Virus record (IMG/VR): IMGVR_UViG_2537562231_000019
Length of the DNA stretch: 5,384 bases
Origin: a virus
Taxonomy: Duplodnaviria > Heunggongvirae > Uroviricota > Caudoviricetes
Strand: one strand, 5' to 3'
Part shown: positions 4,913 through 5,128 of the stretch, in pieces
Numbering within the stretch: position 1 is the stretch's first letter
How the letters are laid out: each line of letters begins with the position of its first letter
Notes under the pieces: model-generated
Database searches by the model: none
What the model saw: only the letters and a program-made list of their open reading frames with translations
What the model was told of the DNA's origin: nothing
Program-made: the position numbers and the translations under genes

Positions 4913-5017
4913 GGATATTTATCAGGATTTATCGGTTTCTGAGCCCTGGATATGTTTATCAGTTCCAGCCTGTTGCCTCAGGCTGCTAACAGGTCAATAC
5001 AATCATGAGGATTATTT

Positions 5018-5128
5018 ATGGACAATAACACCATTTCTCTACAGGAGTTGCTCGACAGCATTTCCAGGCTTCGGGAAGACGTGAATACCCTTACCGTCGC
5101 CGGTGATGCTGCCAACTTACTGATTTAG
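5018..5128 (+). pseudogene. ORF of unknown function truncated by IS1 insertion (28 native codons MDNNTISLQELLDSISRLREDVNTLTVA, then read-through into IS1 end to TAG at 5126-5128)
   Basis: ATG 5018 with SD GAGGA 7 nt upstream; reading frame is interrupted exactly at the IS1 left end (5102). Confidence 0.3.

What the first reader, a model, noticed from the sequence alone, without database searches (positions are those of the whole stretch)
4913..5101. No canonical holin upstream of the SAR-type endolysin; endolysin start lacks an SD and is overlapped by direct repeats
In lambdoid lysis cassettes a holin normally sits immediately 5' of the endolysin. Here, all three minus-strand frames in the 189 bp upstream of the endolysin ATG are closed or non-protein-like, and a divergent plus-strand ORF starts at 5018. 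The endolysin ATG has no purine-rich SD. It is overlapped by the first copy of a near-perfect direct repeat TGGATAT(G)TTTATCAG (4912-4925 and 4947-4962; TTTATC occurs three times), followed by nested inverted repeats AGCCTG-N6-CAGGCT (4967-4984). Either the holin function is supplied elsewhere (for example by the downstream micro-ORFs), or the cassette is rearranged or defective, possibly linked to the adjacent IS1.
Basis: partly seen in the sequence, partly recalled or inferred. Interest (0 to 1): 0.55.

Follow-up and report, generated by a model that had tools for sequence, protein, structure and literature searches.

The report
IS1-interrupted Qin-type phage lysis cassette
The endolysin only looks holin-less because an IS1 element has jumped into a small opposite-strand gene between it and its normal phage-21-type holin, which sits just beyond the IS1 in matching assemblies, so the finding is ordinary.

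Summary
The sequence features are real, but the "no holin" reading is refuted. The window is the late region of a lambdoid (Qin-like) E. coli prophage, read on the minus strand. In all 71 related loci with both flanks, and in about 1,040 of 5,426 complete E. coli genomes, the order is: P21-type class II holin (71 aa), YdfR (DUF1327), an opposite-strand 90-aa gene (phrog_2411), SAR endolysin, micro-ORFs, Rz/Rz1.

In the window, IS1 (from 5102) sits exactly after codon 28 of the 90-aa gene. Draft contigs carry the other IS1 end, the 9-bp target duplication ACCGTCGCC, the rest of the 90-aa gene, intact ydfR and an intact holin. One of them comes from the same assembly as a contig identical to the window over 2250-5227. 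This is a simple insertion, not a deletion.

The missing Shine-Dalgarno is ancestral to this endolysin. K-12 rrrQ lacks one too and is coupled to ydfR through an ATGA overlap.

The direct repeat is no better than chance and is not conserved. The 7-bp hairpin is marginal, has no U-tract, and lies upstream of the 90-aa gene's ribosome-binding site.

The only open point is the function of the 90-aa gene, which behaves like an opposite-strand moron.

The parts
4379..4912 (-). SAR-type endolysin R (177 aa, rrrQ-like)
   Evidence: Pfam Phage_lysozyme, E = 1.3e-23. Matches the PDB lysozyme chains 3hde, 3hdf and 4zpu (RrrD). The N-terminal stretch YGLSAAVLALIAAGAPAP has 7 Ala, 2 Gly and 1 Ser in 18 residues and follows MNAKIR. 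The E35-X8-D44-X5-T50 triad is present.
4913..4965 (-). Leader of R on the late transcript: A/U-rich, no Shine-Dalgarno, three GATAAA (TTTATC on the plus strand)
   Evidence: No anti-SD pairing. The same ~55 nt leader is present in a relative that lacks the 90-aa gene (L105). Only the last ~10-14 nt are shared with K-12 rrrQ.
4912..4925 (+). Direct repeat copy 1 (TGGATATTTATCAG), overlapping the last base of the R start codon
   Evidence: Not beyond chance. Partly deleted in the L012/L013 variant.
4947..4962 (+). Direct repeat copy 2 (TGGATATGTTTATCAG). Contains a -10-like TATGTT (4951-4956) and the motif GCCCTGGATAT.
   Evidence: GCCCTGG(A/T)TAT followed by TATGTT, TATTGT or TATGAT is the only upstream stretch conserved between the E. 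coli and Citrobacter copies of the 90-aa gene. Its role as a promoter is inferred.
4966..4985 (.). Inverted repeat CAGCCTG-N6-CAGGCTG (7-bp stem, 6-nt loop)
   Evidence: I6. No T-run on either strand, and not called as a terminator. The stem is degraded to about 5 bp plus a mismatch in diverged E. coli variants. Citrobacter has an unrelated 8-bp hairpin at the same relative place.
5007..5011 (+). Shine-Dalgarno (GAGGA) of the 90-aa gene, 6 nt before its ATG
   Evidence: Anti-SD duplex of -6.1 kcal/mol. AGGA is conserved in all variants, including Citrobacter.
5018..5101 (+). Codons 1-28 of the opposite-strand 90-aa gene (phrog_2411, WP_000369850.1 in relatives). Here it is truncated and reads on into IS1 to a stop at 5126-5128.
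   Evidence: The intact gene is annotated in relatives.
5093..5101 (.). IS1 target site ACCGTCGCC, duplicated at the other end of the IS1
   Evidence: The right junction ...GGAGTCATTACC|ACCGTCGCC|TTCTCATATC... is on L099, L100 and L102.
5102..5384 (+). Left end of IS1: IRL at 5102-5124, insA from the GTG at 5157, running off the window
   Evidence: 100% identical over 283 nt to an annotated IS1B copy. InsA Pfam domains are called on L004. IS1 annotations lie under the matches.
3269..3736 (-). Rz i-spanin (155 aa), with the embedded Rz1 o-spanin (3331-3516, 61 aa; lipobox VSAC, proline-rich)
   Evidence: Pfam Phage_lysis, E = 7.5e-50. The embedded ORF is listed.
3738..4301 (-).
   Evidence: They are annotated as hypothetical proteins in RefSeq relatives. 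They are not needed to explain holin function.

Best explanation
The interval 4913-5101 is the junction between two modules of an ordinary Qin-type lambdoid lysis cassette, and a simple IS1 insertion has cut it.

On the minus (late-operon) strand the uninterrupted cassette reads: P21-type pinholin S (71 aa, dual start), YdfR (DUF1327), a 343-bp spacer, SAR endolysin R, micro-ORFs, Rz/Rz1. The spacer holds a 90-aa gene on the opposite strand. That gene has its own SD and probably its own weak promoter and a 5' hairpin.

In this lineage IS1 inserted after codon 28 of the 90-aa gene and duplicated ACCGTCGCC. The holin and ydfR therefore lie about 1.5 kb upstream of R, beyond the edge of the window.

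Inferred mechanism:
- R is translated from the Q-antiterminated late transcript that starts upstream of S.
- Initiation uses an SD-less, A/U-rich leader. That start context is inherited from an ancestor in which R was coupled to ydfR through an ATGA overlap, as in K-12 Qin.
- R is exported and tethered by its SAR domain, then released when the pinholin depolarises the membrane. Rz/Rz1 then disrupt the outer membrane.
- IS1 destroys the 90-aa gene and adds 777 bp to the late transcript. Q-modified RNA polymerase is expected to read through this, so the cassette need not be dead.
For: Shown:
- The window interval 4850-5100 is 100% identical in relatives, and 1,040 of 5,426 complete E. coli genomes cover at least 80% of it.
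- Annotated relatives show holin, YdfR, opposite-strand 90-aa gene, lysozyme.
- All 71 viral and genomic loci with both flanks have that order, with a constant 105-bp (or 99-bp) gap between the two ATGs.
- The left IS1 junction occurs on 6 NCBI draft contigs, all ending in IS1.
- The right junction, with IRR, the 9-bp duplication and the rest of the gene, followed by intact ydfR and holin, is on L099, L100 and L102.
- L102 and L005 come from the same assembly (GCA_001283565.1). L005 has no mismatch to the window over 2250-5227.
- The holin hits Pfam Phage_holin_2_1 (P21 S) at 9e-33.
- R has a SAR-like N-terminus and the E-X8-D-X5-T triad, and matches PDB 3hde/3hdf.
- K-12 rrrQ also lacks an SD and overlaps ydfR by ATGA.
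- The 90-aa gene is real: it keeps its 90-aa length across roughly 60-99% identity, has dN/dS of 0.22-0.38, and has a conserved SD.

Established knowledge: the pinholin/SAR-endolysin pathway of phage 21 (PMC9239132, read).
Against: - The window itself ends inside IS1, so the right junction is taken from other assemblies of the same lineage, not from the window's own genome.
- No transcription data exist for read-through of IS1, for the promoter of the 90-aa gene, or for SD-independent initiation of R.
- The consensus scan found no strong sigma-70 promoter upstream of the 90-aa gene. The proposed TTTATC-N17-TATGTT matches only 7 of 12 positions.
- Whether the prophage as a whole is still inducible is unknown.
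Confidence: 0.88

Rival explanations
1. The cassette is genuinely holin-less. The SAR endolysin would be released spontaneously, or by the small membrane ORFs between R and Rz acting as a holin or releasin, as in phage Mu.
For: Three to four tiny hydrophobic ORFs do lie downstream of R. A holin-less SAR-endolysin system exists in Mu (PMC9239132).
Against: A canonical P21-type holin lies upstream in every relative and beyond the IS1 in the same lineage. The micro-ORFs match only PHROGs of unknown function. In relatives the same slot is filled by unrelated cargo: an antirepressor, or ParDE plus Rha.
Confidence: 0.03
2. In the window's own genome the IS1 mediated a deletion or inversion, so the holin and ydfR are lost or displaced even though they are present in sister assemblies.
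For: The window stops inside IS1. IS1 can promote adjacent deletions. Other IS1 copies have landed in the same cassette in other strains.
Against: The insertion point and orientation are the same in six draft contigs. The matching right junction with a perfect 9-bp duplication is found in at least three assemblies, one of which shares an identical left side with the window.
Confidence: 0.06
3. The repeats and hairpin are a dedicated regulatory device, for example operator sites or a translational control element that times endolysin synthesis.
For: TTTATC/GATAAA is locally enriched. The three GATAAA are kept in a variant leader that lacks the 90-aa gene. A hairpin at the equivalent place, with a different sequence, exists in Citrobacter.
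Against: The repeat is within chance. One repeat unit is deleted and another mutated in L012/L013. The hairpin is degraded in diverged E. coli variants, with no clear compensatory changes. Folding energy is no better than shuffles. No match to a known regulator motif was tested.
Confidence: 0.12

Closest known systems
Phage 21 lysis cassette (S21 pinholin, R21 SAR endolysin, Rz/Rz1)
   Same: The holin belongs to the P21 S Pfam family and has a Met1/Met4 dual start. The endolysin has a SAR-like N-terminus and E35/D44/T50. An embedded Rz1 lies within Rz. All are on one late operon.
   Different: Here S and R are not adjacent. ydfR, an opposite-strand 90-aa gene and now IS1 lie between them, and small ORFs lie between R and Rz.
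E. coli K-12 cryptic prophage Qin: essQ-ydfR-rrrQ-rzpQ/rzoQ
   Same: The S-ydfR-R order is the same. About 86.5% nucleotide identity runs from the holin to mid-ydfR and again from 10 bp upstream of the R ATG into R. The SD-less ATAAATATC(C/T)ATG start is the same.
   Different: In K-12 the ydfR stop overlaps the rrrQ ATG (ATGA). In the window family a ~480-bp block replaces ~100 bp, giving a different YdfR C-terminus, the 90-aa opposite-strand gene and a 105-bp intergenic region.
Phage morons (independently transcribed cargo genes inserted between late genes of lambdoid phages)
   Same: The 90-aa gene lies opposite to the late operon and has its own SD. It is present or absent between otherwise homologous neighbours. 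Distant family members sit in other late-operon slots, such as a tail gene cluster, or outside prophages.
   Different: No promoter or terminator has been demonstrated, and no function is known.
IS1 insertions in E. coli and Shigella genomes
   Same: A 23-bp IRL, insA, a 9-bp target duplication, and a simple insertion without loss of flanking DNA.
   Different: Nothing unusual. It happens to fall inside a lysis cassette, as two other independent IS1 copies do in other strains.

Membership tests
P21-type pinholin / SAR-endolysin lysis cassette | A class II holin of the S21 family, with dual start, encoded upstream on the same late operon | tested here: met
   It is not in the window. It is present in all relatives and beyond the IS1 on L099, L100 and L102. 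Pfam PF04971, E = 9e-33. The sequence begins M-x-x-M.
P21-type pinholin / SAR-endolysin lysis cassette | An endolysin with a weakly hydrophobic, Gly/Ala/Ser-rich N-terminal SAR domain and the E-X8-D/C-X5-T lysozyme triad | tested here: met
   Residues 7-24 are YGLSAAVLALIAAGAPAP. E35, D44 and T50 are present. Pfam Phage_lysozyme. Sequence matches to 3hde/3hdf.
P21-type pinholin / SAR-endolysin lysis cassette | Release of the endolysin from the membrane by pinholin-driven depolarisation | not testable with these tools
   This needs an induction or DNP-triggering assay as described in PMC9239132.
P21-type pinholin / SAR-endolysin lysis cassette | A two-component spanin, with Rz1 embedded in Rz | tested here: met
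   Rz at 3269-3736, Pfam Phage_lysis 7.5e-50. An embedded 61-aa proline-rich ORF with lipobox VSAC lies at 3331-3516.
Simple IS1 insertion | IS1 terminal inverted repeat and insA at the junction | tested here: met
   IRL GGTGATGCTGCCAACTTACTGAT at 5102-5124, insA GTG at 5157. 100% identity over 283 nt to an annotated IS1.
Simple IS1 insertion | A 9-bp direct duplication of the target, with uninterrupted flanking sequence on the far side | tested here: met
   ACCGTCGCC lies at 5093-5101 and again directly after the IRR on L099, L100 and L102, followed by the next bases of the intact gene. It was tested on sister assemblies, not on the window's own genome.
Holin-less SAR-endolysin system (Mu-type, releasin-dependent) | No holin in the phage, and a DUF2730 releasin within a few genes downstream of the endolysin | tested here: not met
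   A holin is present in the lineage. Of the downstream small ORFs, only the 43-aa one was scanned against Pfam, and it matched nothing. All four candidates were scanned against PHROGs and hit only families of unknown function.
Intrinsic (rho-independent) terminator | A GC-rich hairpin followed by a U-tract | tested here: not met
   The hairpin at 4966-4985 has no T-run on either strand and is not called by the scan.
Phage moron | A gene present or absent between conserved neighbours, with its own transcription signals | tested here: inconclusive
   Presence/absence and opposite orientation are shown. The SD is conserved. The promoter is only a weak consensus match, and no terminator was found.

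The most novel reading that the evidence does not exclude
The 90-aa opposite-strand gene (phrog_2411) would be a functional, lysogen-expressed accessory gene. Its transcription, antisense to the late operon and convergent with ydfR, or its small three-helix protein, would modulate lysis or late-gene expression. This is a narrow orphan family: only 19 clusters at 50% identity among 1.84 billion representatives. It is under purifying selection, and every copy found inside a phage late operon reads against that operon. IS1 would have knocked it out in this lineage.
Probability: 0.12. Interest if true: 0.4.

Novelty: already known. Interest (0 to 1): 0.1.

Why it matters
It matters mainly as a caution. 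Holin and endolysin need not be adjacent in Qin-type cassettes, and a window edge inside an IS element can mimic a missing gene. The absence of a Shine-Dalgarno before this endolysin is a family trait left over from translational coupling, not a lesion. The only loose end of biological interest is the uncharacterised 90-aa counter-oriented gene, which is carried by about a fifth of complete E. coli genomes inside their lysis cassettes.

Tried and rejected
- **Left IS1 junction, complete genomes.** I searched for it in the complete E. coli genomes and found no exact match. The only two places covering at least 80% of the query are IS1 copies at other positions.
- **Left IS1 junction, species-representative genomes.** Zero hits. 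The junction was then found by looking up the 36-aa truncated product. The right junction was found through the 50-aa C-terminal fragment P0045.
- **Possible IS1 fusion proteins.** I suspected the 94-aa hits to the 90-aa gene were IS1 fusions. They are frameshift variants.
- **Function of the 90-aa protein.** No Pfam family. No PDB sequence match, even with a profile. The AlphaFold model is a three-helix protein (pLDDT 72) with no Foldseek PDB hit better than E = 1.5. The exhaustive profile search found only 19 representative clusters. Literature searches for ybl58, ydfR plus holin plus endolysin, and DUF1327 gave nothing useful.
- **Promoters and terminators.** The scans found no strong promoter for the 90-aa gene and no terminator at the hairpin. 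TTGCCT-N19-TACAAT was considered and rejected, because its transcript would start inside the SD.
- **RNA structure.** Neither strand of the interval folds better than shuffles.
- **Covariation in the hairpin.** Single variants point in opposite directions: one keeps pairing as G-U on the plus strand, one on the minus strand. No conclusion is possible.
- **Upstream micro-ORF for translational coupling to R.** The frame ending at the ATGA has no canonical start codon.
- **dN/dS.** It cannot separate the sense frame from the codon-phased antisense frame. The antisense frame is excluded because it is closed by stops.

Full report
**What the window is.** The late genes run on the minus strand.
- Terminase large subunit: 1-1011, running off the window.
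- Terminase small subunit: 1011-1574.
- HNH endonuclease: 1865-2230.
- TonB_C-domain lipoprotein: 2604-2930.
- Rz at 3269-3736, with embedded Rz1 at 3331-3516.
- Several tiny hydrophobic ORFs: 3738-4301.
- A 177-aa lysozyme: 4379-4912.

On the plus strand there is a DUF3950 gene (2272-2472), a short ORF from 5018, and IS1 from 5102. The first 5,100 bases match hundreds of E. coli prophages at 98-99% identity, and 697 genomes cover at least 80% of them. This is a common lambdoid, Qin-like prophage late region.

**Checking the observation.**
- The repeat copies, TGGATATTTATCAG at 4912-4925 and TGGATATGTTTATCAG at 4947-4962, differ by two bases, not one.
- The inverted repeat is a 7-bp stem, CAGCCTG-N6-CAGGCTG, at 4966-4985.
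- IS1 begins at 5102.
- The three minus-strand frames upstream of the endolysin ATG are indeed closed.
- There is no anti-SD complementarity upstream of the endolysin ATG: +0.3 kcal/mol, against -5.7 to -12.1 for five of the six other starts correctly positioned in that scan.

Statistically the features are weak.
- An equally good gapped direct repeat occurs in 6.5% of dinucleotide shuffles and in 22% of same-sized tiles of the real window.
- A 7-bp stem occurs in 5% of shuffles.
- Only the clustering of TTTATC stands out.
- Neither strand folds better than shuffles.

**What intact relatives have upstream of this endolysin.** The 251 bases at 4850-5100 are 100% identical in the best-matching genomes, and 1,040 of 5,426 complete E. 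coli genomes cover at least 80% of them. In annotated relatives (ON470626, NZ_CP025847, NZ_CP009050) the minus-strand order is:
1. Class II holin (71 aa).
2. YdfR family protein (114 aa, DUF1327).
3. A 343-bp spacer.
4. Lysozyme, small ORFs, Rz.

The spacer holds a 90-aa hypothetical gene (WP_000369850.1) on the opposite strand. Its 3' end overlaps the 3' end of ydfR.

Among the loci collected from viral and genome collections, all 71 with sequence on both sides show this order. The two ATGs are 105 bp apart in 80 loci and 99 bp apart in 2. The holin hits Pfam Phage_holin_2_1, the phage 21 S family, at 9e-33. It begins M-D-Q-M, the dual-start arrangement.

**The IS1 is a simple insertion, and the holin is just beyond it.** The exact left junction is absent from complete E. 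coli genomes and from the species-representative genomes. Looking up the 36-aa truncated product found six NCBI draft contigs with the same junction, and each ends inside IS1. Looking up a 50-aa C-terminal fragment of the 90-aa protein (P0045) found contigs that start in IS1. They read ...AAGTTGGAGTCATTACC | ACCGTCGCC | TTCTCATATCTGG.... That is the IS1 right end, a 9-bp duplicate of window 5093-5101, and then the very next bases of the intact gene.

Downstream on those contigs lie an intact 114-aa YdfR and an intact 71-aa holin, then the SASA esterase and iraM, as in uninterrupted relatives. One right-junction contig (L102) and one left-junction contig (L005) come from the same assembly, GCA_001283565.1. 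L005 has no mismatch to the window from 2250 to 5227. IS1 sits exactly between codons 28 and 29 of the 90-aa gene and has removed nothing.

**Why the endolysin has no Shine-Dalgarno.** In K-12 Qin the order is essQ-ydfR-rrrQ. The ydfR stop overlaps the rrrQ start (ATGA), and rrrQ also lacks an SD. Its start context is ATAAATATCTATG, against ATAAATATCCATG here. Homology between K-12 and the window family runs from the holin to mid-ydfR and resumes 10 bp upstream of the endolysin ATG. Between those points, about 480 bp replace about 100 bp.

A third variant (L105) has a 63-bp ydfR-R spacer without the 90-aa gene. It shares the ~55-nt leader with the window, including all three GATAAA units. A fourth variant (L012/L013) has the 90-aa gene but only a remnant of ydfR.

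The SD-less start is therefore an inherited property of this endolysin allele, probably a relic of translational coupling. The GATAAA units belong to the endolysin leader. How R initiates without coupling, most likely through an unstructured A/U-rich leader, is inference.

**The opposite-strand gene.**
- It has no Pfam family and belongs to phrog_2411, of unknown function.
- Sixty-two homologues were found, from Escherichia, Shigella and Citrobacter. Most keep exactly 90 residues across roughly 60-99% identity, with 21-23 invariant positions.
- dN/dS against the window-type allele is 0.22-0.38.
- An AGGA ribosome-binding site 6 nt before the ATG is conserved even in Citrobacter.
- An exhaustive profile search finds only 19 representative clusters in 1.84 billion proteins.
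- Only 3 of 50,697 phage records carry it, one of them an Stx2k phage.
- The predicted structure is three helices (pLDDT 72), with no significant PDB match by fold or by sequence.
- In Citrobacter it lies opposite to a different holin and endolysin.
- A distant 88-aa member lies opposite to a tail-gene operon. A 97-aa member lies outside any recognisable prophage.

This behaviour fits a moron, meaning self-contained cargo inserted against the late operon, rather than a dedicated lysis gene. Its function remains unknown.

**The repeats and the hairpin.** The second repeat copy carries GCCCTGGATAT and a -10-like TATGTT. The corresponding Citrobacter sequences keep GCCCTGG(A/T)TAT with TATTGT or TATGAT in an otherwise unalignable region. 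A TTTATC lies 17 bp upstream as a poor -35.

The hairpin follows 9 nt later. Citrobacter has an unrelated 8-bp hairpin at the same relative position. I therefore infer a weak promoter whose transcript begins just 5' of a stabilising hairpin and then reaches the SD. The consensus scan does not call this promoter. The hairpin degrades in diverged E. coli variants without clear compensation. The repeat units are deleted or mutated in L012/L013. The hairpin is not an intrinsic terminator, because it has no U-tract.

**Most likely mechanism.**
- Shown: the gene content and order, the simple IS1 insertion, and the family assignments.
- Established knowledge (PMC9239132): an S21-type pinholin depolarises the membrane and releases a SAR endolysin, and the spanins complete lysis.
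- Inferred: the endolysin is made from the Q-antiterminated late transcript that starts upstream of S. A terminator-like hairpin with a T-run lies just upstream of the holin in L002.
- Inferred: IS1 lengthens that transcript by 777 bp and inactivates the 90-aa gene, and antiterminated polymerase reads through it. If it does not, R, Rz and the packaging and head genes downstream would be silenced, and the prophage would be defective in lysis and morphogenesis.

**Comparison and novelty.** The cassette is a member of the phage 21 / Qin kind. The features testable by sequence are met: holin family, SAR domain and catalytic triad, and embedded spanins. The functional release step is not testable here. 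The IS1 meets all sequence criteria of a simple insertion. Nothing in the interval is new. The arrangement is annotated in RefSeq in more than a thousand genomes, and the same IS1 junction is already present in public draft assemblies. Interest is low. The one unexplained item is the role of the 90-aa counter-oriented gene.

Noticed in passing
window 1650-1770: Six GTTAACA sites forming three near-palindromic pairs lie within 120 nt, between the HNH gene and the terminase small-subunit start. Only 0.45 are expected by chance. This is probably the cos or terminase-recognition region of an HK97-like HNH/TerS/TerL packaging module.
   Followed up: partly
window 3738-4301 (minus strand): Three to four tiny hydrophobic ORFs (28, 40-51, 43 and 31 aa) fill the slot between R and Rz. 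They match phrog_4906, 1115/3246/4493 and 6632, all of unknown function. In relatives the same slot holds an antirepressor (Stx phages) or a ParDE toxin-antitoxin pair plus a Rha protein.
   Followed up: partly
window 2604-2930 (minus strand): A 108-aa lipoprotein with a TonB C-terminal domain (Pfam 8.6e-15) sits between Rz and the HNH gene, in a Bor-like position. It is absent from L001, L004 and L105, which carry a 71-74-aa ORF there instead.
   Followed up: no
L105 3165-3862 and L106 3487-4184: Two other independent IS1 insertions lie in the same cassette in other E. coli strains. One is between the holin and ydfR (NZ_CP117016) and one is just upstream of the holin (NZ_CM143884).
   Followed up: partly
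L009 6055-6058, L105 2714-2776, L002 6064-6406, L012 2902-3448: At least four different junctions link S to R in homologous cassettes: an ATGA overlap of ydfR and rrrQ (K-12 Qin); a 63-bp spacer; a 343-bp spacer with the opposite-strand 90-aa gene; and the 90-aa gene with only a remnant of ydfR.
   Followed up: yes
proteins P0030, P0037, P0042, P0048-P0051, P0059-P0061: Many database entries for the 90-aa protein are frameshifted 94-aa variants that switch into one particular alternative frame, which stays open to the same end. It is unclear whether these are sequencing errors or recurrent pseudogenisation.
   Followed up: no
L002 7010-7038 (minus strand): A 12-pair hairpin with a T-run lies immediately upstream of the holin gene. 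It resembles the tR' terminator of lambdoid late operons.
   Followed up: no
L015 965-3455: In Citrobacter meridianamericanus the homologue of the 90-aa gene lies opposite to an unrelated lysis cassette: a 112-aa holin, a 162-aa endolysin of another type, and Rz/Rz1. It overlaps the 3' end of a 238-aa gene.
   Followed up: partly
window 1-2250 versus L005: All 65 mismatches between the window and the otherwise identical contig L005 fall before position 2250, almost all of them in the terminase genes. From there to the IS1 junction the two are identical. This points to recombination within the packaging module after the IS1 insertion.
   Followed up: no
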